This document shows positions 23,488 through 32,628 of a stretch of 32,628 nucleotides of DNA, in pieces. Position 1 is the first letter of the stretch. Every line of letters starts with the position of its first letter. Position numbers and translations under genes: made by a program. The notes beneath the pieces were generated by a model that was not told the origin of the DNA, ran no database searches, and worked only from the letters and a program-made list of their open reading frames with translations. This stretch comes from Alphaproteobacteria bacterium (GTDB lineage Bacteria; Pseudomonadota; Alphaproteobacteria; DATDPM01). Location: positions 1 to 32,628 of the forward strand of contig JBAVNO010000027.1 of assembly GCA_049691095.1 (NCBI GenBank). The letters run 5' to 3'.

Positions 23488-23535
23488 CGCCGCTAACCTG
23501 CGCCGCTAACCTGCGCCGCTAACCTGCGCCGTTAC
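23488..23535. repeat. 13-bp tandem repeat (CGCCGCTAACCTG) x3 plus a degenerate fourth copy
   Basis: Perfect copies at 23488-23500, 23501-23513 and 23514-23526. The degenerate copy contains the stop codon of the TrcR-like gene (23532-23534). Confidence 0.9.
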
Positions 23536-24086
23536 CCGGCCTGGGCGGCCGGTTCGGCCGGCTTGACGCGGCGCTTGGCGCGCGTGACCGCGGCCTCGAG
23601 CTCGGCGTAGGTGCACATCCCCAGTTCGATGGGGTGGCGCGGACGGATGTTGGTGGCGTTCCAATGGGTGCGGTCGCGCACGGCGGTGATGGTGGATTTG
23701 GTGGTGCCGATCAGCTTGGCGATCTGCCCGTCGGAAAGCTCCGGATGGTGCTTCAGGAGCCAGGCGATCGCATCCGGCCGGTCGCTGCGCTTGGCGATCG
23801 GCGTGTAGCGCGGGCCCTTGGCGCGGGTCTGCGGCAACGGGATCGAGGGCTCGCTCAGCTTCAGCCGGTCCTTGGGATCGGCGAGGCAGCGCGCGATCTC
23901 CTCCTGCGTCACCTGGCCGTTGGCCACCGGGTCCAGGCCCACCATGCCGGCCGCCACCTCGCCATCGGCGATGGCCTGGACCTCGAGCGGGTGCAAGCCG
24001 CAGAAGTCGGCGATCTGCTCGAAGGTGAGCGCGGTATTCTCGACCAGCCACACGGCCGTCGCTTTGGGCATCAGGGGTAGAGCCAA
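23532..24086 (-). CDS. DUF1013 / TrcR-family protein (alphaproteobacterial cell-cycle transcriptional regulator family)
   Basis: LPLMPKATAVWLVENTALTFEQIADFCGLHPLEVQAIADGEVA is the conserved DUF1013 N-terminus. TTG 24086 lies 5 nt downstream of AAGGAGG; ATG 24071 is the alternative. The rest of the 590-aa track ORF overlaps qor out of frame. Confidence 0.8.
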   Translation of the reverse strand: MALPLMPKATAVWLVENTALTFEQIADFCGLHPLEVQAIADGEVAAGMVGLDPVANGQVTQEEIARCLADPKDRLKLSEPSIPLPQTRAKGPRYTPIAKRSDRPDAIAWLLKHHPELSDGQIAKLIGTTKSTITAVRDRTHWNATNIRPRHPIELGMCTYAELEAAVTRAKRRVKPAEPAAQAG

Positions 24087-24178
24087 CGAAACCTCCTTCG
24101 AATGAAAAAAGCCATACCTTCGCCGCGCCGCCGTTCCGCGGCCGGACCAGGGGGGCCCAATTGCCGTTTGATCCTTAG

Positions 24179-24206
24179 CATATAAGGCCCAAGCTTCCCG
24201 GGTCAA
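24179..24206 (-). promoter_or_regulatory. Candidate sigma-70-type promoter for the TrcR-like gene
   Basis: Minus strand reads TTGACC-N16-TATATG, about 90 nt upstream of the start. Confidence 0.35.
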
Positions 24207-24244
24207 AGCCTCTTGCCCCGGAAAAGACTGGAAAAACCGGGCCC

Positions 24245-25222
24245 TCACGTCACCAGCACGATCTTGCCCGTGTGGGCGCCGGACTCCATCAGCCGGTGCG
24301 CCTCGGCCGCCTTGTCGAGGGGGAAGGTGGCGTGGACCACGGGGCTGATGCGCCCGGTCTCGAGTTGCGGCCATATGTGCCGGTGCAGGGCCTCGGCGAT
24401 CGCGGCCTTTTCCGCGACCGGGCGGGGCCGCAAGGTGGACCCCGTGACGACCAGGCGCTTCAGCATGATGGGGAGGAAATTGACCTCGGCCTTCACCCCC
24501 TTGAGGAAGGCGATGAAGACCAGCCTTCCGTCGGGCGCCAAGAGGTCGATGTTGCGCTGGATGTAATCGCCGCCGACCATGTCCAGGATCACGTCGGCGC
24601 CCTTGCCGCCGGTCTGCTCCTTGACCGCGGCCACGAAGTCCTGCTCCCGGTAGTTGATCGCCTGTTCCGCGCCCAGCACCCGGCAGGCGCGGCATTTCTC
24701 GGCGCTGCCGGCGGTCACGAACACCCGCGCGCCCATCACCCGGCCGATCTGGATGGCCGCGGTGCCGATGCCGCCGCCGCCGCCGTGCACGAGCAGCACC
24801 TCGCCCGGCCCAAGCGCCGCCCGGATCATCACGTTCGACCACACCGTGAAGAACGTTTCCGGCAGGGATGCCGCTTCCACCATGTCGAGCCCGGCCGGTA
24901 CGGGCAGGCACTGGCCCGCCGGCGCCAGACAGAAGGTGGCGTATCCGCCCCCGGCCACCAGCGCGCACACGCCGTCGCCCACGCGCGGCTTGGCCACTCC
25001 CGGACCCACGGCCACGACGGTGCCCGCCACTTCCAGCCCCGGAATATCGGTGACGCCCTTGGGCGGCGGATAGACCCCCTGGCGCTGCAGCACATCGGGG
25101 CGGTTGACGCCCGCGGCCGCGACCTGGATCAGAACCTCGCCTTCGCCCGGCTGAACCACGCGGCGCTTGGCGGGGACCAGCACCTCGGGTCCACCGGGCG
25201 CGGTGATTTCGATCACCGTCAT
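24245..25222 (-). CDS. NAD(P)H:quinone oxidoreductase (zinc-independent MDR, PIG3/Qor-like)
   Basis: MTVIEITAPGGPEVL..., GVNRPD and LVHGGGGGIGTAAIQ motifs. An in-frame ATG at 25246 is an alternative start. Confidence 0.85.
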   Translation of the reverse strand: MTVIEITAPGGPEVLVPAKRRVVQPGEGEVLIQVAAAGVNRPDVLQRQGVYPPPKGVTDIPGLEVAGTVVAVGPGVAKPRVGDGVCALVAGGGYATFCLAPAGQCLPVPAGLDMVEAASLPETFFTVWSNVMIRAALGPGEVLLVHGGGGGIGTAAIQIGRVMGARVFVTAGSAEKCRACRVLGAEQAINYREQDFVAAVKEQTGGKGADVILDMVGGDYIQRNIDLLAPDGRLVFIAFLKGVKAEVNFLPIMLKRLVVTGSTLRPRPVAEKAAIAEALHRHIWPQLETGRISPVVHATFPLDKAAEAHRLMESGAHTGKIVLVT

Positions 25223-25350
25223 GGTCTCGGGCAGGAACACGGTCATGACTTGAATTCGTAACCGGAAACGGGGAAAAAGGCGGCACCACGTCTAACGGCT
25301 GCAAGGCCGGCTTACAAGGCCGGAAGTCGCCTCAAACACGAGCACGGGCC

Positions 25351-27874: not shown

Positions 27875-29725
27875 ATGCCTGACGATCAAACATCCTCTTC
27901 GCCCGGCCCGGGCCAGACCGCAGCGGCGACGCCAGGCGGCCGGCCTTCGCCGCGCGAGATCGTGCGCCTCTCGCACGTCCTCAAATTCCTTGCCCCGTAC
28001 AAGCTGCGCCTGGCGCTGGCGGGCATCGCCGTGGCGGTGGCGGCCGGCACGGTGCTCGCCATGGGCTACGGCCTTCGCCGCCTGGTGGACGACGGTTTCC
28101 GCAGCGGCGACGCCGCGCTGCTCGACAAGGCGCTCATCGTGCTGCTCGCGGTCATCGTGGTGCTGTCGGCGGCGACGGCGGCCCGGTTCTATTTCGTGTC
28201 GTGGATCGGGGAACGGGTGATCGCGGACATCCGGCGGGCGGTCTACGACCATGTGGTGTCGCTTAGTCCCGCCTTCTTCGAGACCACGCGCACCGGCGAA
28301 ATCCTCTCCCGGCTCACCACCGACACCACGTTGATCGAGACCGTGGTGGGGTCCACCGGCTCGATGGCGGCGCGGAACCTGCTGATGCTGGTCGGCGGCG
28401 TGGCGCTCCTGGTGGTGACGAGCCCGAAGCTCACCGGGCTCGTGGTGCTGGTGGTTCCGGTGGTCGTGCTGTCGATCATCTTCTTCGGGAGGCGGGTGCG
28501 GCGTCTCTCGAGGGCCACCCAGGACCGCGTGGCCGATGTCGGCAATTACGTGGAGGAAAGCCTGAACTCCATCCGCACGGTCCAGGCCTTCAATCACGAG
28601 GACGCCGACCGCCGGTCCTTCGGGGAGCGCGTGGAGGGGGCATTCGGAACGGCGGTGCACCGCATCAAGGCGCGCGCGTTCCTGACCGCGCTCGTCGTGC
28701 TGCTGGTGTTCGGCGCCATCGGGATCATTCTTTGGATCGGCGGGCACGACGTGTTCGCCGGACGCATCACTCCCGGCGAGCTTTCGGCGTTCATCTTCTA
28801 TGCGGTCCTGGTCGCAGGCGCCGTGGGCAGCCTGAGCGAATTCGTGGGCGACCTTCAGCGCGCCGCCGGCGCGTCGGAGCGGCTCGCCGATCTGCTGGCC
28901 ACCCGCAGCGCCGTGACCTCGCCCGCGAATCCCGTGCCCATGCCCAGTCCGCCCCGCGGCGCGGTGTCGTTCAAGGACGTGGTCTTCAGCTATCCCACCC
29001 GTCCCGGCCAGCCCGCGCTGGAAGGCTTCAGCCTCGAAGCCGCATCGGGTCAGACCGTGGCGCTGGTGGGGCCGTCGGGCGCCGGCAAGACCACCGTGTT
29101 CCAGCTGCTGCTGCGCTTCTACGACCCGCAGGCGGGCGCGATCACGCTCGACGGGGTCGATCTCCGCCGGGCCAGCCTTCGGGACATCCGCGCGCGAATC
29201 GGGCTCGTCGCCCAGGACCCGGTCATCTTCGCCGCCAGCGCGTGGGAGAACATCCGCTACGGCCGGCCGGATGCCTCCGACGACGAAGTCCGCGCCGCGG
29301 CCGAGGCGGCGGCGGCGACCGAGTTCCTCGACCGCCTGCCGGAACGATTCGACACCCATCTCGGCGCGCGGGGCGTGCGGCTGTCGGGCGGGCAGCGCCA
29401 GCGCATCGCGATCGCCCGCGCGATCCTGCGCAATCCCGCGGTCCTGCTCCTCGACGAGGCGACCAGCGCGCTCGATGCCGAAAGCGAACGCATGGTGCAG
29501 GTGGCGCTCGAGACGCTGATGGAGGGGCGCACGACATTCGTCATCGCCCACCGCCTGGCGACGGTGCTGAAGGCGAACCGCATCGCGGTGATGAACGAGG
29601 GCCGCGTCATCGACAGCGGCACGCATGAAGAGCTGATCCGCCGCTGCACGCTCTATGCCAGGCTGGCGGAGCTTCAGTTCGACGCCGGGGCGGCGGCGGG
29701 CCTGTTGGCGGCGGGGAACGCCTGA
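27875..29725 (+). CDS. ABCB-family ABC exporter, fused permease and ATPase half-transporter (MsbA/Mdl1/ABCB10-like)
   Basis: Six-TM domain, then GPSGAGKT (Walker A), [14 protein letters not shown] (signature) and [11 protein letters not shown] (Walker B). Starts 3 nt after the cyaY stop. Confidence 0.9.
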
Positions 29726-29732
29726 CGGCCGG

Positions 29733-31010
29733 TCAGCGCTCGGAGAGCTTGAGCTCGATGCGGCGGTTGCGGCGGTAGGCGATCTCGTCGTCGCCGGGTT
29801 CCAAGGGCTGGAACTCGCCGAAGCCGGTGGCGGCAAGTCGCTCCGGGGCCACACCCTGGGAAACCAGGAACCGCACGACGGAAATGGCGCGCGCCGTCGA
29901 AAGCTCCCAGTTGGACGGGAATTCCGGGTTGTTGATCGGTCGCTTGTCGGTGTGCCCGTCCACGCGCAGCACCCAGTTCAGCTCCTTGGGGATGGATTTC
30001 GCGATTTCGAGCAGCGTTTGCGCGAGCTTCGCCAGTTCCTGCTTGCCGTCGGGACCGATCTCCGCCGAGCCGGTGTCGAACAACACCTCGGACTGGAACA
30101 CGAACCGGTCGCCGACCACGCGGATGTCGGGGCGGTCGCCCAGAATCTCGCGCAGTTTCCCGAAGAATTCGGAGCGGTAGCGGGCCAGCTCCTGGACCTT
30201 TCCGGCCAGCGCGACGTTCAAGCGCTTGCCGAGGTCGGCGATCTGGACGTTCTGCTCCTTGACCTGGGTTTCCGAGACCTCGAGCGCCTTCTCGATTGCG
30301 GCCAACTGCTGGCGCAGCGCCGCGATCTGCTGGTTCAGGATCTCGATCTGGGCGTGCTGCTCCGTGGTCAGCTTCTGTTCCTGGGACAGCGACGCCTCGC
30401 TGCTCTTCAGCAGCACGTCCTTCTGTTGGATATCCTTCTGCGCCAGATTCGTGCGCTCGGTCTCCTCGGCGAGCTTCGCCTCCAGCTCCTTGCTGCGGTC
30501 GCGGACCTGGCCGAGCTCGGCCTCCATCCCGCTCGCCTTGGCCTCGCTCTCCTTGAGCGCCGTATTGAGCCGCCCCACTTCGGCCTCGAGCTGCGCGCGC
30601 ACGGTCTTCAGCGCTTCGATGTCGCGGAGCACGCTTTCCAGCTCCGTGCGGGCCTTCACGAGGTCGGATTGCGAGGCTTCGGCCTTGGCGGCGGTCTCGC
30701 GCAATTGCTGTTCGGCCGTGTCGCGGGCCGCGAGCGAACTTTGAAGCTGCGACGACAATTCCGAGATGTTGAGCCGCAGGTTTGCGTTGGCCTGGCGCTC
30801 GAGCGCCAGCAGATCGGCGAGCTCGCTCACCTGCCGGCTCAGGCGCGTCAGGGCTTCGTCGCGGCCCGAAAGCGTCTCGCGCAGGTAGAACTGCGACAGC
30901 ACGAACACGACCAGCATGAACGTGATGACCAGGAGCAGCGACGTCAGCGCGTCGACGAAGCCGGGCCAGATATCGACGGTGCGGCGGGAGCGGCGGGCGG
31001 GAGAGGCCAT
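29733..31010 (-). CDS. MotB-type subunit: N-terminal TM with conserved Asp, coiled coil of about 230 aa, C-terminal OmpA-like peptidoglycan-binding domain
   Basis: IWPGFVDALTSLLLVITFML parallels the MotB TM segment and its protonatable Asp. Residues ~45-275 are a heptad-rich Leu/Glu/Gln/Ala/Lys sequence. The C-terminus has DGHTD, NWELSTARA and NRRIELK OmpA_C motifs. Confidence 0.85.
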   Translation of the reverse strand: MASPARRSRRTVDIWPGFVDALTSLLLVITFMLVVFVLSQFYLRETLSGRDEALTRLSRQVSELADLLALERQANANLRLNISELSSQLQSSLAARDTAEQQLRETAAKAEASQSDLVKARTELESVLRDIEALKTVRAQLEAEVGRLNTALKESEAKASGMEAELGQVRDRSKELEAKLAEETERTNLAQKDIQQKDVLLKSSEASLSQEQKLTTEQHAQIEILNQQIAALRQQLAAIEKALEVSETQVKEQNVQIADLGKRLNVALAGKVQELARYRSEFFGKLREILGDRPDIRVVGDRFVFQSEVLFDTGSAEIGPDGKQELAKLAQTLLEIAKSIPKELNWVLRVDGHTDKRPINNPEFPSNWELSTARAISVVRFLVSQGVAPERLAATGFGEFQPLEPGDDEIAYRRNRRIELKLSER

Positions 31011-31028
31011 CGGGCTGGCGGCGCCGGT

Positions 31029-32174
31029 CTAGCGCCCGTCCTCCTCGGCGACGGCGGCGATGGTGCGGGCAAGCAGCTTGATCTCGCTTCTCAGCTCCTG
31101 GATGAGCTGGCTTCGTCCCGTCGCCGCGTCCTCCAGCATCCGCGCCAGATAGACCTCGATGTTGCGGATGTGGGTCCGGGTGGTCGAATCCATGCCCATC
31201 CCGCCGTCGCCGCCGGCGGCGGTGGCGAGCTTGTTCAGGACCGGCTTGAGCTCGAGCTGGCTCTCGGCCAGCTTGATCATCAGCGACTGTTCCGCCCGCA
31301 TCTGATCGGTCAGCGTGCTGAGCCGCTCCGAGAGCGACACCAGGGCCGTGTTGGCCGCGACCTGGTTGTCTTGGCCGCGGGCCAGGGTGCGCTGCAGGTT
31401 TTCCAGGCTGTCGGCGGTCTGCTCCAAAAGCGCCTGGATGTAAGCGGGAACCGCCTGGTCGCCCTCGACCACGGCCCCGCCGCTGGAGAGCCGCGTGACG
31501 CTGGAAAGCCATTCCTCGAGCTCGTTGTAGAACCGGTTCTGCGCTTGGCCCGCCTGAAGCTCGAGGAAGCCCAGCACCAGCGAGCCGCTGAGACCGAACA
31601 AGGACGAGCTGAACGCGGTCCCCATTCCCGCGAGCGGCGCCTCGAGGCCTTTCTTCAGGTTGTCGAACACGGTGGTGAGATCGTTCGACGACACGTCGAG
31701 CGTGCCGATGACGCCGCCCACCGATCCCACGGTCTGCAGCAGGCCCCAAAACGTGCCCAGGAGTCCGAGGAAGATGAGAAGGTTGATGAGATAGCGGGAA
31801 ATCTCGCACGATTCGTCGAGCCGCGAGCTGATGGAATCGAGGAGCGAACGCTGCGAGGTCGCCGACAGCCGCAACCGGTCGGAGCGATCCCCCAACATGG
31901 TGGCCATCGGTCCCAACAGCCGCGGCCCCGGCTTGCCGGATAGCGCGACGCGGTCGCGCCGGAAGCTTTCGATCCAGTCGACCTCGGGATAGAGCATCAC
32001 CACCTGGCGGAAGATGAAGGCGATGCCGAAGGCGATCACGGCGAAGATCAGCGCGTTGAGCGCCGGGTTCGCGGCGAAGATGGTGCGAATGCCGGCGAAC
32101 AGCGCGCCGATCACGATCAGCACCATCGCCAGGAACACGATCATGCGGGTGAGAAAGCGTCGGGGCCTGGTCAT
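31029..32174 (-). CDS. MotA/TolQ/ExbB-family ion channel subunit (4-TM MotA-like topology) with a helical C-terminal tail of about 165 aa
   Basis: FLGLLGTFWGLLQTV and GMGTAFSSSLFGLSGSLVLGFL are channel-family motifs. About 165 residues follow the last TM, rich in Leu, Glu, Gln and Ala. Confidence 0.85.
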   Translation of the reverse strand: MTRPRRFLTRMIVFLAMVLIVIGALFAGIRTIFAANPALNALIFAVIAFGIAFIFRQVVMLYPEVDWIESFRRDRVALSGKPGPRLLGPMATMLGDRSDRLRLSATSQRSLLDSISSRLDESCEISRYLINLLIFLGLLGTFWGLLQTVGSVGGVIGTLDVSSNDLTTVFDNLKKGLEAPLAGMGTAFSSSLFGLSGSLVLGFLELQAGQAQNRFYNELEEWLSSVTRLSSGGAVVEGDQAVPAYIQALLEQTADSLENLQRTLARGQDNQVAANTALVSLSERLSTLTDQMRAEQSLMIKLAESQLELKPVLNKLATAAGGDGGMGMDSTTRTHIRNIEVYLARMLEDAATGRSQLIQELRSEIKLLARTIAAVAEEDGR

Positions 32175-32210
32175 GACTCACCCCGCTTGATGGCGACGGG
32201 CGGCACGGTG

Positions 32211-32628
32211 TCAGGGTTTGACAAGGACGAGATCCACCCGGTCTCCGGGCCCGTTTTCGAATTTGTTTCCGAGCGCACGAACGTCCATGCGCGTGCTGCG
32301 CACACCGCGGTCGATCAGGAAGGCGCGCACCGCCAGGGCGCGCGACAGCGACAGCCGCCGCGCCTGACTCGCGTTGTCGTCCCCGCCCGAGGCGTAGGCG
32401 ACGATCTGCAGCCGCAGGTCCGGATCCGCCGCCAGGGCGCCGGACACGTCCGATAGGGTCTGCTGGGCGCCTTCGGCCAGCGCGGCCGAGCCCACGGCAA
32501 ACGAAATCGGCGAGGCCTTCTCCGGCTGCATCGGAAACGGTGTCGCGGGAAGCATCGCGACCTCGCCCGCCGGTTTGGGGGCCTGGGCGCTCGCTTCCGC
32601 CGCAGGCTCGGGCGGCGGCGGTGACGGG
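32211..32628 (-). CDS. OmpA-like peptidoglycan-binding protein, C-terminal part (5' end probably outside the window)
   Basis: The frame stays open to the window edge through a Pro/Ala-rich linker. ISFAVGSAAL...LQIVAYASG...ARRLSLSRALAVRAFL is an OmpA_C-like domain. Same strand as the MotA-like gene and 36 nt upstream of it. Confidence 0.7.
   Translation of the reverse strand, partial: PSPPPPEPAAEASAQAPKPAGEVAMLPATPFPMQPEKASPISFAVGSAALAEGAQQTLSDVSGALAADPDLRLQIVAYASGGDDNASQARRLSLSRALAVRAFLIDRGVRSTRMDVRALGNKFENGPGDRVDLVLVKP

What the first reader, a model, noticed from the sequence alone, without database searches (positions are those of the whole stretch)
29733..32628. Orphan three-gene stator-like module: OmpA-like protein, tailed MotA-type channel and coiled-coil MotB-type anchor, with no known client machinery
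Three co-directional genes with 18- and 36-nt gaps look like an operon. The A subunit has MotA/ExbB channel motifs and 4 TMs, plus a helical cytoplasmic tail of about 165 aa. The B subunit keeps the MotB-type TM with its conserved Asp (FVDALTSLL) and a canonical OmpA_C domain, but about 230 aa of coiled coil sit between them. The upstream gene adds a second OmpA-like anchor on a Pro/Ala linker. None of the usual partners is adjacent: no flagellar genes, no tolRAB-pal, no tonB/exbD, no gliding genes, and no Zorya zorC/D/E-type effector. The flanks are housekeeping, with a convergent ABC exporter downstream. A tailed A subunit is the hallmark of the ZorA anti-phage motor, yet here the largest extension is on the periplasmic B subunit. 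That suggests a different and, as far as I know, uncharacterised ion-driven envelope machine.
Basis: partly seen in the sequence, partly recalled or inferred. Interest (0 to 1): 0.75.

Follow-up and report, generated by a model that had tools for sequence, protein, structure and literature searches.

The report
Housekeeping Zorya-like membrane motor, unknown client
This is a real, widely conserved pair of alphaproteobacterial core genes (plus an optional third) that most likely builds an ion-driven inner-membrane motor anchored to the cell wall; its closest known relative is the ZorAB anti-phage motor, but it sits among housekeeping genes and nobody knows what it drives.

Summary
Three co-directional minus-strand genes lie at 29733-32628 with 18- and 36-nt gaps. 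C is an OmpA-like protein cut by the window end. A (381 aa) is a MotA/ExbB/TolQ-superfamily channel subunit with a helical cytoplasmic tail of about 174 aa. B (425 aa) has a MotB-type TM with an invariant Asp20, about 250 aa of coiled coil and a MotB-type OmpA domain.

A is a divergent family with no curated model. By HMMs its nearest known family is ZorA; its predicted fold matches TolQ, ExbB and ZorA and only marginally flagellar MotA.

A and B are adjacent in 83 of 83 related loci. They sit in a core syntenic block (efp-suhB upstream, ABC exporter/rpmE downstream) from Rhodospirillales to Sinorhizobium. This points to a vertically inherited housekeeping pair, not a defence island or a flagellar stator. 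C is accessory (42 of 65 loci).

The pair is catalogued: B passes the NCBIfam PRK09039 "peptidoglycan-binding protein" cut-offs. Its likely orthologues were studied as "motA/motB" in non-flagellated Komagataeibacter hansenii (polar localisation, cell-length effects). No mechanism or client is known.

Verdict: an uncharacterised variant of the 5:2 motor kind, of moderate to high interest.

The parts
32211..32628 (-). C: 3' part of an accessory periplasmic gene (Pro/Ala-rich linker plus divergent OmpA-like domain). The 5' part lies beyond the window end.
   Evidence: Translation is open to base 32627. Pfam OmpA E 7.7e-12 at residues 43-121 of the fragment. The full-length relative in L086 is 407 aa. 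Orthologues carry a Sec signal peptide, a V-x-V-D-L-S-V-L motif, a Pro-rich linker and an OmpA domain.
31029..32174 (-). A: 381-aa MotA/ExbB/TolQ-superfamily (ZorA-like) channel/rotor subunit.
   Evidence: ORF. PF01618 E 1.6e-3, below cut-off. PADLOC ZorA1 E 3.3e-14. All 37 diverse members hit ZorA models. AF2 model and Foldseek: the top 48 matches are all TolQ, ExbB or ZorA.
31992..32144 (-). A residues 11-61: two N-terminal transmembrane helices (TM1 about 11-33, TM2 about 39-61).
   Evidence: Hydropathy peaks at 11-29 and 42-60. AF2 helices 4-33 and 37-74.
31725..31793 (-). A residues 128-150: pore-lining helix with the motif LGLLGTFWGLL (T141 and T148 invariant).
   Evidence: Invariant columns L136 G137 G140 T141 W143 G144 L145 T148 in 37 diverse sequences. 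Aligned to PF01618 positions 35-107.
31554..31628 (-). A residues 183-207: second pore-lining helix (P180-x-x-GMGTAFSSSLFGL).
   Evidence: Invariant P180 M184 F188 G194 L195. Lies inside AF2 helix 166-226, pLDDT 81-87.
31032..31553 (-). A residues 208-381: cytoplasmic helical tail. Helices 245-321 and 330-380 carry the conserved motifs DxxTRxHIRNI(D/E) and ELRxEIxLLxRT.
   Evidence: AF2 secondary structure. Conservation. Heptad periodicity of 245-321: 2 of 2000 shuffles reach it. The PADLOC ZorA1 alignment runs to residue 307. The tail module is repeated in P0121 and P0152.
29733..31010 (-). B: 425-aa MotB-type anchor subunit, a member of NCBIfam PRK09039 'peptidoglycan-binding protein'.
   Evidence: NF006543 scores 479 bits against a cut-off of 305. 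Directly downstream of A in 83 of 83 loci.
30894..30968 (-). B residues 15-39: single TM helix with the conserved Asp20 (codon 30951-30953) in WPGFVDALTSLL.
   Evidence: W15 and D20 invariant in 48 orthologues. Motif present in 119 of 120. Hydropathy peak 21-39.
30141..30893 (-). B residues 40-290: periplasmic coiled coil that continues the TM helix without a break.
   Evidence: AF2 helices 15-180 and 201-290. No Pro in 45-290; 3.5-residue periodicity of 45-180 is reached by 0 of 2000 shuffles. Orthologue lengths vary in heptad steps.
29736..30122 (-). B residues 297-425: MotB-type OmpA-like peptidoglycan-binding domain (GHTD...SNWELSTARA...NRRIE).
   Evidence: Pfam OmpA E 1.9e-16. The best solved relatives are MotB, MotS and PomB periplasmic domains, E 5e-18 to 1e-13.

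Best explanation
A and B form a housekeeping, ion-driven (probably proton-driven) inner-membrane complex of the 5:2 motor kind that includes MotAB, ExbBD, TolQR and ZorAB.

Shown:
- A has the ExbB/TolQ/ZorA fold and the conserved GLLGTFWG / P-x-x-GMGTAF pore helices.
- B has a single TM helix with an invariant Asp and a MotB-type peptidoglycan-binding domain.
- The two genes are inseparable in 83 loci and sit in a vertically inherited core-genome block.

Inferred:
- A B dimer is the wall-anchored axle. Its TM helices run straight into a long parallel coiled coil that ends in two OmpA domains bound to peptidoglycan.
- Protonation and deprotonation of Asp20 drives an A pentamer to rotate, or switch conformation, around B.
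- The conserved helical tail of A (about 174 aa, a short version of the ZorA tail) is the output. It passes torque or a signal to a partner that is not encoded in the operon.

The biological role is most likely envelope or cell-pole physiology (cell length or division, surface behaviour), judging from the Komagataeibacter 'motA/motB' data. C, where present, is a secreted RmpM-style peptidoglycan tether and an accessory part.
For: Superfamily and fold:
- PF01618 is matched by 29 of 37 diverse members, best E 1e-8.
- All 37 members match PADLOC ZorA1 and ZorA3, best E 1e-15.
- In NCBIfam only ZorA subfamilies recur.
- The top 48 Foldseek PDB matches of the AF2 model are all TolQ, ExbB or ZorA, probability at least 0.96. 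The best TM-score is 0.55, to Shewanella ZorA 8vvn.

Pore motifs and the Asp:
- Invariant T141, T148, P180 and M184 in A.
- Invariant W15 and D20 in B.

Anchor:
- B's OmpA domain is closest to solved MotB, MotS and PomB domains.
- B passes NF006543, NF006545 and NF006544.

Axle:
- The TM helix continues into helix 15-180.
- Heptad periodicity and heptad-quantised lengths.

Housekeeping status:
- A-B adjacent in 83 of 83 loci; suhB upstream in 51 of 65; efp in 49 of 65.
- The same block occurs in S. meliloti.
- More than 8000 homologues and 596 clusters at 50% identity with E < 1e-30.

Physiology:
- K. hansenii motA/motB primers translate to VTRPTTY, MARRSR and EFRLTDR. These fit the family's termini.
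- That species has no flagellum. The GFP fusions are polar. Overexpression elongates cells. Disruption mutants were obtained, with denser cellulose.
Against: - No stoichiometry, ion flux or rotation has been measured or modelled here; only monomers could be predicted.
- The A model is of medium confidence (pLDDT 69.8) and the Foldseek E-values are only 1e-3 to 1e-2.
- The window protein itself is below the Pfam gathering score.
- The coiled coil (about 22-70 nm across orthologues) is longer and more variable than any IM-to-wall distance, which a simple axle does not explain.
- Three of four sampled distant A homologues (35-38% identity) have no adjacent B.
- The Komagataeibacter link rests on short primer-derived peptides and on annotation, and its phenotypes are indirect.
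Confidence: 0.6

Rival explanations
1. Tol-Pal-like periplasmic force transducer. The motor's useful output is in the periplasm, not the cytoplasm. PMF-driven movement of A is passed through B's long coiled coil, and through C where present, to the peptidoglycan and outer membrane. This would keep the envelope layers connected at poles or septa.
For: - The largest and most variable extension is periplasmic.
- The 60 residues after the B TM helix are the best conserved part of the coil.
- C is a secreted protein with a conserved N-terminal peptide, a Pro-rich hinge and an OmpA domain.
- The fold is as close to TolQ and ExbB as to ZorA.
- Polar localisation and cell-length phenotypes in K. hansenii resemble Tol-Pal biology.
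Against: - B ends in a canonical wall-binding domain, so it should be the fixed part.
- There is no TolA/TonB-type TM-anchored transducer; C has a cleavable signal peptide and is missing in a third of loci.
- The cytoplasmic tail of A is strongly conserved over its whole length, which a purely periplasmic output does not need.
Confidence: 0.2
2. Static scaffold or sensor. A-B is not a rotary motor. It is an inner-membrane-to-wall tether or envelope-stress sensor whose channel-like core is used for gating or signalling only.
For: - No MotB plug is detected.
- The coil is very long and variable, with weak hits to filament and crescentin rod models in 26 of 48 orthologues.
- Some distant A homologues lack an adjacent B.
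Against: The residues that carry ion translocation in known 5:2 motors are invariant over a deep family: the B Asp and the Thr, Pro and Gly of the A pore helices. Such conservation would be unexpected for a purely structural role.
Confidence: 0.1
3. Anti-phage Zorya-type defence motor with missing or unrecognised effectors.
For: ZorA models are the best HMM matches in PADLOC and NCBIfam. A has a cytoplasmic tail, and the ZorA1 alignment extends into it.
Against: - Scores are far below family cut-offs (21.6 vs 500 bits).
- The tail is about 174 aa against 507 in E. coli ZorA (PMC11946911).
- ZorB has its wall-binding domain fused directly to the TM helix, whereas B has a 250-aa coil.
- No ZorC, D, E, F or G gene is adjacent.
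- The core-genome synteny is conserved across orders, unlike the patchy distribution of defence systems.
Confidence: 0.05
4. A spare or degenerate flagellar stator, as the public annotations say ('flagellar motor protein MotA', 'chemotaxis protein MotB').
For: - The annotation names.
- 4-TM topology with N and C termini inside.
- A MotB-type OmpA domain.
Against: - None of 37 members matches any NCBIfam MotA model.
- Flagellar MotA appears only at Foldseek rank 49 with probability 0.54.
- The TM2-TM3 cytoplasmic loop is only about 65 aa.
- There is no MotB plug.
- It is never next to flagellar genes in the gene tables.
- It is present in non-flagellated K. hansenii.
Confidence: 0.03

Closest known systems
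ZorAB of the Zorya anti-phage system (structures 8QYD, 8VVN; PMC11946911)
   Same: - It is the nearest family by HMM in three libraries.
- It gives the best TM-score among solved structures.
- The A subunit has a membrane-proximal cytoplasmic domain and a helical C-terminal tail.
- The B subunit has a TM Asp and a wall-binding domain.
- The ZorA layout (cytoplasmic domain 48-127, tail from 223) maps almost residue for residue onto A (loop 62-127, tail from about 208).
   Different: - A has an extra N-terminal TM helix (4 against 3).
- The tail is about 174 aa against about 507 aa.
- B carries a 250-aa coiled coil where ZorB has none.
- There are no effector genes.
- It has a core-genome, vertically inherited context instead of a defence-island context.
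TolQR and ExbBD (Tol-Pal and Ton motors)
   Same: - They give the top Foldseek matches.
- The pore-helix motif GL(L/F)GT(F/V)WG with its Thr is the same as recalled for TolQ and ExbB.
- They also have housekeeping status.
   Different: - The B subunit is MotB-type (OmpA domain), not ExbD/TolR-type.
- There is no TolA/TonB-like anchored transducer and no tolB/pal or tonB nearby.
- Only 1 of 37 members gives even a weak hit to the TolQ model.
Flagellar stator MotAB / PomAB
   Same: - 4-TM A topology.
- The B TM motif W-x-x-(F/Y)-x-D-x-x-T.
- The B OmpA domain is closest to solved MotB, MotS and PomB domains.
   Different: - No torque-generating cytoplasmic domain.
- No plug.
- No flagellar gene context.
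- Present in a non-flagellated genus.
- MotA is only a marginal structural match.
Komagataeibacter hansenii 'MotA/MotB' (Jacek et al. 2019, PMC6570709; review PMC7347698)
   Same: - Probably orthologous: primer-encoded termini VTRPTTY, MARRSR and EFRLTDR fit the family.
- Adjacent genes, 4 TM plus an OmpA architecture, in Acetobacteraceae, which carry the family.
   Different: - Shorter proteins (348 and 321 aa).
- Studied only for cellulose pellicle engineering, and interpreted as motility genes without a mechanism.
Neisseria RmpM (for gene C only; recalled from memory, not tested)
   Same: A secreted protein with a short N-terminal interaction segment, a Pro-rich hinge and a C-terminal OmpA-like wall-binding domain.
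   Different: No detectable sequence relationship beyond the OmpA-like domain. The partner of the N-terminal V-x-V-D-L-S-V-L motif is unknown.

Membership tests
MotA/ExbB/TolQ superfamily (A subunit of 5:2 motors, PF01618) | Match to PF01618 at or above the gathering score | tested here: inconclusive
   The window protein scores 18.6 bits against a cut-off of 22.9. 29 of 37 diverse family members match at E <= 0.01, best 1.1e-8.
MotA/ExbB/TolQ superfamily (A subunit of 5:2 motors, PF01618) | Fold of a solved A subunit | tested here: met
   AF2 model (pLDDT 69.8; TM core 80-90). The top 48 Foldseek PDB hits are all TolQ, ExbB or ZorA, probability at least 0.96, target-normalised TM-score up to 0.55.
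MotA/ExbB/TolQ superfamily (A subunit of 5:2 motors, PF01618) | Two conserved pore-lining helices with a polar Thr facing the B Asp | tested here: met
   LGLLGTFWGL with T141 and T148 invariant; P180-x-x-GMGTAF.
MotA/ExbB/TolQ superfamily (A subunit of 5:2 motors, PF01618) | Adjacent B subunit with a single TM helix carrying a conserved Asp | tested here: met
   B is directly downstream in 83 of 83 loci. D20 is invariant in 48 orthologues and the motif occurs in 119 of 120.
MotA/ExbB/TolQ superfamily (A subunit of 5:2 motors, PF01618) | A5B2 stoichiometry and PMF-driven rotation | not testable with these tools
   Only monomer prediction was available; no experiment was possible.
Flagellar stator MotAB/PomAB | Match to curated MotA models | tested here: not met
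   None of 37 members hits any NCBIfam MotA model at E <= 0.01. MotA 6ysl is at Foldseek rank 49, probability 0.54.
Flagellar stator MotAB/PomAB | MotB plug (PF13677) after the TM helix | tested here: not met
   No PF13677 hit at E <= 0.1 in the window protein, and it is not among the 25 most frequent families in 48 orthologues. The TM helix runs straight into the coil.
Flagellar stator MotAB/PomAB | MotB-type OmpA-like wall-binding domain | tested here: met
   The best PDB relatives are MotB, MotS and PomB domains, E 5e-18 to 1e-13. MotD and MotS NCBIfam models match but below their cut-offs.
Flagellar stator MotAB/PomAB | Association with flagellar genes or flagellated hosts | tested here: not met
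   No flagellar genes in the window or in the gene tables of L002, L003, L086 and L088. Present in non-flagellated K. hansenii.
Zorya (ZorAB plus effectors) | ZorA family membership by curated model | tested here: not met
   NF033917 scores 21.6 bits against a cut-off of 500. PADLOC ZorA1 gives E 3.3e-14 as a partial match of 127-307 only.
Zorya (ZorAB plus effectors) | Long cytoplasmic tail (about 500 aa, about 70 nm) | tested here: not met
   The tail is about 174 aa, against ZorA 223-729 (PMC11946911).
Zorya (ZorAB plus effectors) | Adjacent effector genes (zorC/D, zorE, zorF/G) | tested here: not met
   The neighbours are suhB, efp, an ABC exporter, cyaY, rpmE and DUF1465. C gives no PADLOC hit.
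Zorya (ZorAB plus effectors) | Patchy, defence-island distribution | tested here: not met
   Synteny is conserved across Rhodospirillales, Acetobacteraceae, Kiloniellales and Rhizobiaceae.
Tol-Pal / Ton systems | ExbD/TolR-type B subunit and a TolA/TonB-type TM-anchored transducer | tested here: not met
   B carries an OmpA domain. C has a cleavable Sec signal peptide, not a TM anchor. TolQ model hit in 1 of 37 members, ExbB in none.
NCBIfam PRK09039 'peptidoglycan-binding protein' (B subunit) | Score above the curated equivalog cut-off | tested here: met
   NF006543 479.4 against 305; NF006545 426.4 against 372; NF006544 418.3 against 362.

The most novel reading that the evidence does not exclude
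The A-B pair is an alphaproteobacteria-wide, vertically inherited housekeeping 5:2 motor and the closest cellular relative of the Zorya ZorAB defence motor. Its wall-anchored, heptad-quantised coiled-coil axle and short rotating cytoplasmic tail would serve a core process not yet linked to any ion-driven motor, such as control of polar envelope organisation or cell length. It would then be a sixth functional class of 5:2 motors, and a model for how the Zorya tail signal arose.
Probability: 0.3. Interest if true: 0.8.

Novelty: new variant of a known kind. Interest (0 to 1): 0.55.

Why it matters
5:2 ion-driven motors are known to power flagella, Ton uptake, Tol-Pal envelope maintenance, gliding/T9SS and Zorya defence. 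Here is a further family with three notable properties.
- It is a core gene pair kept in the same chromosomal block from Rhodospirillales to Rhizobiaceae, with relatives in at least 599 stretches of the species-representative genome collection.
- It has no curated model for its A subunit and is mis-named as a flagellar protein in public annotation.
- Its nearest relative is the phage-defence motor ZorA.

If the inferred mechanism is right, the family offers a tractable housekeeping relative for asking what a ZorA-type tail does. It also points to an unrecognised PMF-dependent process in a class that includes rhizobia, Brucella relatives, acetic acid bacteria and the lineage of mitochondria. 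On the practical side, the 'flagellar motor protein MotA' and 'chemotaxis protein MotB' labels should not be used to infer motility.

Tried and rejected
- Single-sequence and profile searches of A against PDB sequences gave only coiled-coil noise from the tail. The relationship to solved motors appeared only through the predicted fold.
- Literature searches found no named system apart from the Komagataeibacter work. Terms tried were PRK09039, stator-like/MotAB-like/MotA-like with Alphaproteobacteria, ZorA with Alphaproteobacteria, and MotA TolQ ExbB phrases.
- The S. meliloti Rgs/Tol-Pal paper, the R. rubrum curvature paper and the alphaproteobacterial signature-protein paper do not mention the pair.
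- The MotAB evolution paper (FIT/GIT classes), in the sections read, does not single out this clade.
- Long A homologues were checked for informative domain fusions. None was found, only repeated tail modules or Pro-rich extensions.
- I considered C as a TolA/TonB analogue and rejected this, because orthologues have cleavable AxA|Q signal peptides rather than a TM anchor.
- I considered an antiparallel hairpin for the B coil and judged it unlikely, because length changes sit mostly in one arm.
- I considered a SiiAB-like link to the convergent ABC exporter and rejected it. The exporter is adjacent in only 18 of 63 loci, and no adaptor or TolC gene is present.
- I could not map S. meliloti or other model-organism locus tags, so Tn-seq and fitness data were not consulted.

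Full report
**1. What is in the sequence**

On the minus strand lie three co-directional genes.
- B: 29733-31010, 425 aa.
- A: 31029-32174, 381 aa.
- C: an upstream reading frame from 32211 that stays open to the last base of the window, so it is truncated.

The gaps are 18 and 36 nt. No promoter-like site lies in the region, and the single terminator-like hit is within chance expectation. This is compatible with an operon. The two very long ORFs that overlap these genes (29655-31943 plus strand, 29674-32181 minus strand) are shadows typical of DNA with 66-70% G+C.

The rest of the window is housekeeping:
- PQQ dehydrogenase, an epimerase and an M3 peptidase;
- pntA/pntB, def, COQ9, purK/purE;
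- a GGDEF protein, TrcR, DUF1465, rpmE and cyaY;
- a convergent ABC exporter that ends 7 nt from the B stop.

No flagellar, Tol, Ton, gliding or Zorya effector gene turned up among the window ORFs scanned.

**2. The B subunit**

B passes the curated cut-offs of three NCBIfam equivalog models of PRK09039, 'peptidoglycan-binding protein' (479 bits against 305 for NF006543).
- Its OmpA domain (Pfam E 1.9e-16, residues 310-416) is closest to solved periplasmic domains of MotB, MotS and PomB.
- The N-terminus reads MASPARRSRRTVDIWPGFVDALTSLL.
- W15 and D20 are invariant in 48 aligned orthologues.
- The motif W-x-x-[FY]-x-D is present in 119 of 120 homologues; the exception is N-terminally truncated.
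- From memory, this lines up with the E. coli MotB segment around Asp32.
- No MotB plug (PF13677) is detected.

AlphaFold2 (pLDDT 75) continues the TM helix without a break into a helix spanning 15-180. A low-confidence stretch follows, then a second helix 201-290 and the OmpA fold. Residues 45-290 contain no proline. Residues 45-180 show a 3.5-residue hydrophobic periodicity that none of 2000 shuffles reaches.

**3. The A subunit**

A is a divergent member of the MotA/ExbB/TolQ superfamily.
- Pfam PF01618 is matched only below its gathering score in the window protein (18.6 against 22.9 bits). It is matched by 29 of 37 diverse family members.
- No NCBIfam model covers the family. The only recurring weak matches are ZorA subfamilies (22 and 21 of 37), with TolQ in 1 of 37 and no MotA or ExbB model.
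- All 37 members match PADLOC ZorA1 and ZorA3 models, best E 1e-15. In the window protein the ZorA1 alignment runs from the first pore helix into the tail (127-307).

The AlphaFold2 model (pLDDT 69.8, TM core 80-90) retrieves only 5:2-motor A subunits from the PDB. The top 48 hits are TolQ, ExbB or ZorA, with the best TM-score (0.55) to Shewanella ZorA. Flagellar MotA appears only at rank 49 with probability 0.54.

The invariant residues cluster in two helices: L136-G-L-L-G-T141-F-W-G-L ... T148, and P180-x-x-G-M184-G-T-A-F188.

Hydropathy and the positive-inside distribution give a 4-TM topology with both termini inside and a cytoplasmic loop of about 65 aa (sequence). After the last TM helix comes a tail of about 174 aa made of two long helices (245-321 and 330-380). 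The tail is conserved over its whole length in relatives down to 35% identity, with the motifs D-x-x-T-R-x-H-I-R-N-I-(D/E) and E-L-R-x-E-I-x-L-L-x-R-T.

**4. Distribution and context**

- The family is large: more than 8000 homologues in the 90% clusters (the scoring cap), and 596 clusters at 50% identity with E < 1e-30.
The best 80 are from Rhodospirillales, Azospirillum, Acetobacteraceae, Kiloniellales, Thalassospira and related MAGs.
- In 83 non-redundant loci B is directly downstream of A in all 83.
- C is present in 42 of the 65 loci with enough upstream DNA. suhB lies upstream in 51 of 65 and efp in 49 of 65.
- A convergent ABC exporter (18 of 63) and rpmE (30 of 63) lie downstream.
[quoted passage not shown] It has no C.
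- Gene tables of four relatives show no flagellar, Tol/Ton or defence genes nearby.

This is the signature of an old, vertically inherited core gene pair. It is not the signature of a defence island or a flagellar locus.

Among four sampled distant homologues (35-38% identity), one keeps the C-A-B trio and three have A without an adjacent B. The linkage is therefore not absolute in the deep family.

**5. The accessory gene C**

The full-length relative (L086, 407 aa) and 40-odd orthologues share one plan:
- a Sec signal peptide ending A-x-A|Q;
- a short conserved motif V-x-V-D-L-S-V-L-x-x-x-G;
- a Pro/Ala-rich linker of very variable length;
- a divergent OmpA-like domain.

C is therefore a soluble periplasmic protein, not a TolA/TonB-type anchored transducer. 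Its layout recalls Neisseria RmpM (from memory, not tested).

**6. What is already known**

[quoted passage not shown] It calls B 'chemotaxis protein MotB' or 'peptidoglycan-binding protein'.

The only experimental work I found is on Komagataeibacter hansenii 'motA/motB'.
- The published primers translate to VTRPTTY (family N-terminus M-T-R-P...), MARRSR and EFRLTDR-stop (window B ends IELKLSER-stop).
- The genes are adjacent, encode a 4-TM protein and a 1-TM/OmpA protein, and the genus has no flagellum.
- Orthology is thus likely, but it rests on short peptides.
- GFP fusions were polar. Overexpression gave elongated cells and more colony spreading. Disruption mutants were obtained and made denser cellulose.
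- No mechanism or partner was proposed beyond 'a proton pump'.
- In the sections I read, the 2025 survey of MotAB relatives does not single out this clade.

**7. Most likely mechanism**

Shown:
- the fold and pore motifs of a 5:2-motor A subunit;
- a B subunit with the invariant TM Asp and a MotB-type wall-binding domain;
- obligatory A-B linkage;
- a core-genome context.

Inferred by analogy with MotAB, ExbBD, TolQR and ZorAB (PMC9389320, PMC11946911):
- An A5B2 complex forms in which the B dimer is fixed to peptidoglycan.
- Proton flow through Asp20 makes A rotate, or switch conformation, around B.
- The conserved cytoplasmic tail of A is the output, as proposed for ZorA. It is a third as long, and its partner is encoded elsewhere.

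The role is probably in envelope or pole physiology. That part is weakly supported.

**8. What does not fit**

- B lengths range from 321 aa (K. hansenii) and 342 aa (S. meliloti) to 660 aa. This corresponds to roughly 22-70 nm of coil, far more than any inner-membrane-to-wall distance.
- Lengths change in whole heptads: 13 of 31 distinct lengths are congruent to 5 mod 7 (binomial P = 1.7e-4 if distinct lengths are treated as independent), as are 72 of 120 sequences.
- Insertions sit mainly in the first arm, which argues against a matched hairpin.
- Some A homologues expand the tail by repeating the H-x-R-N-x-D module up to about eight times.

Neither feature is explained by a known stator model.

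**9. Verdict**

However, the unit is a pair with an optional third gene, it is a catalogued and very widespread core family, and it has a small experimental literature under a misleading name.

It fails the membership tests for flagellar stator, Zorya and Tol/Ton. It meets those for the 5:2-motor superfamily as far as these can be tested in silico. I rate it a new variant of a known kind, with interest 0.55.

Noticed in passing
L008, L059, L076, L086 and about 40 other loci, upstream of the A gene (window 32211-32628 holds only the 3' end): Orthologues of the accessory gene C share a short motif right after the signal-peptide cleavage site (V-x-V-D-L-S-V-L-x-x-x-G). A Pro/Ala linker of very variable length follows. 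This may be a docking peptide for an unknown partner.
   Followed up: partly
window 30141-30893 (B coiled coil) and proteins P0271-P0390: Orthologue lengths of B are quantised in heptads. 13 of 31 distinct lengths and 72 of 120 sequences are congruent to 5 mod 7 (binomial P = 1.7e-4 if distinct lengths are treated as independent). Total length ranges from about 320 to 660 aa, too long for a simple membrane-to-wall spacer.
   Followed up: partly
P0121, P0152, P0206 (homologues of window A, tail region 31032-31553): Some A homologues have tails lengthened by tandem repetition of the module that carries the conserved D-E-x-T-R-x-H-L-R-N-L-D motif (about 8 copies in P0152). P0122 instead carries a Pro-rich C-terminal extension.
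   Followed up: partly
L089, L092, L093 (distant A homologues P0237, P0205, P0227); L090/L091 (P0262): In three of four sampled AT-rich, distant lineages the A gene has no adjacent OmpA/B gene. Its neighbours there are BolA, an ABC ATPase, RuvC, a POR oxidoreductase and a BMT5-like protein. L090/L091 keep the C-A-B trio.
   Followed up: partly
window 29655-31943 (+) and 29674-32181 (-): Two very long ORFs (762 and 835 aa) overlap the real A and B genes in other frames. They are Arg/Ala/Gly/Pro-rich shadows of high-G+C DNA, not genes.
   Followed up: no
window 23532-25304 (-): The mechanical ORF is 590 aa, but the TrcR (transcriptional cell cycle regulator) domain covers only residues 440-577. 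The relative in L086 has a 250-aa TrcR gene, so the true start is probably far downstream of the first start codon.
   Followed up: no
L088 (CP090106.1, 3.72 Mb, labelled 'plasmid pSymB' of S. meliloti Ak57): The record carries core chromosomal genes (rpmE, purE/purK, ykgO, suhB) and is chromosome-sized. It is probably the chromosome mislabelled as pSymB in the plasmid collection.
   Followed up: no
L010, L018, L057: Contigs with the alphaproteobacterial efp-suhB-C-A-B synteny are deposited in MAGs labelled Gammaproteobacteria, Patescibacteria and Mycobacteriaceae. These are probably binning or labelling errors.
   Followed up: no
window 29725-29733: The stop codons of the convergent ABC exporter and of B are only 7 nt apart. 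No terminator-like hairpin lies between them.
   Followed up: no
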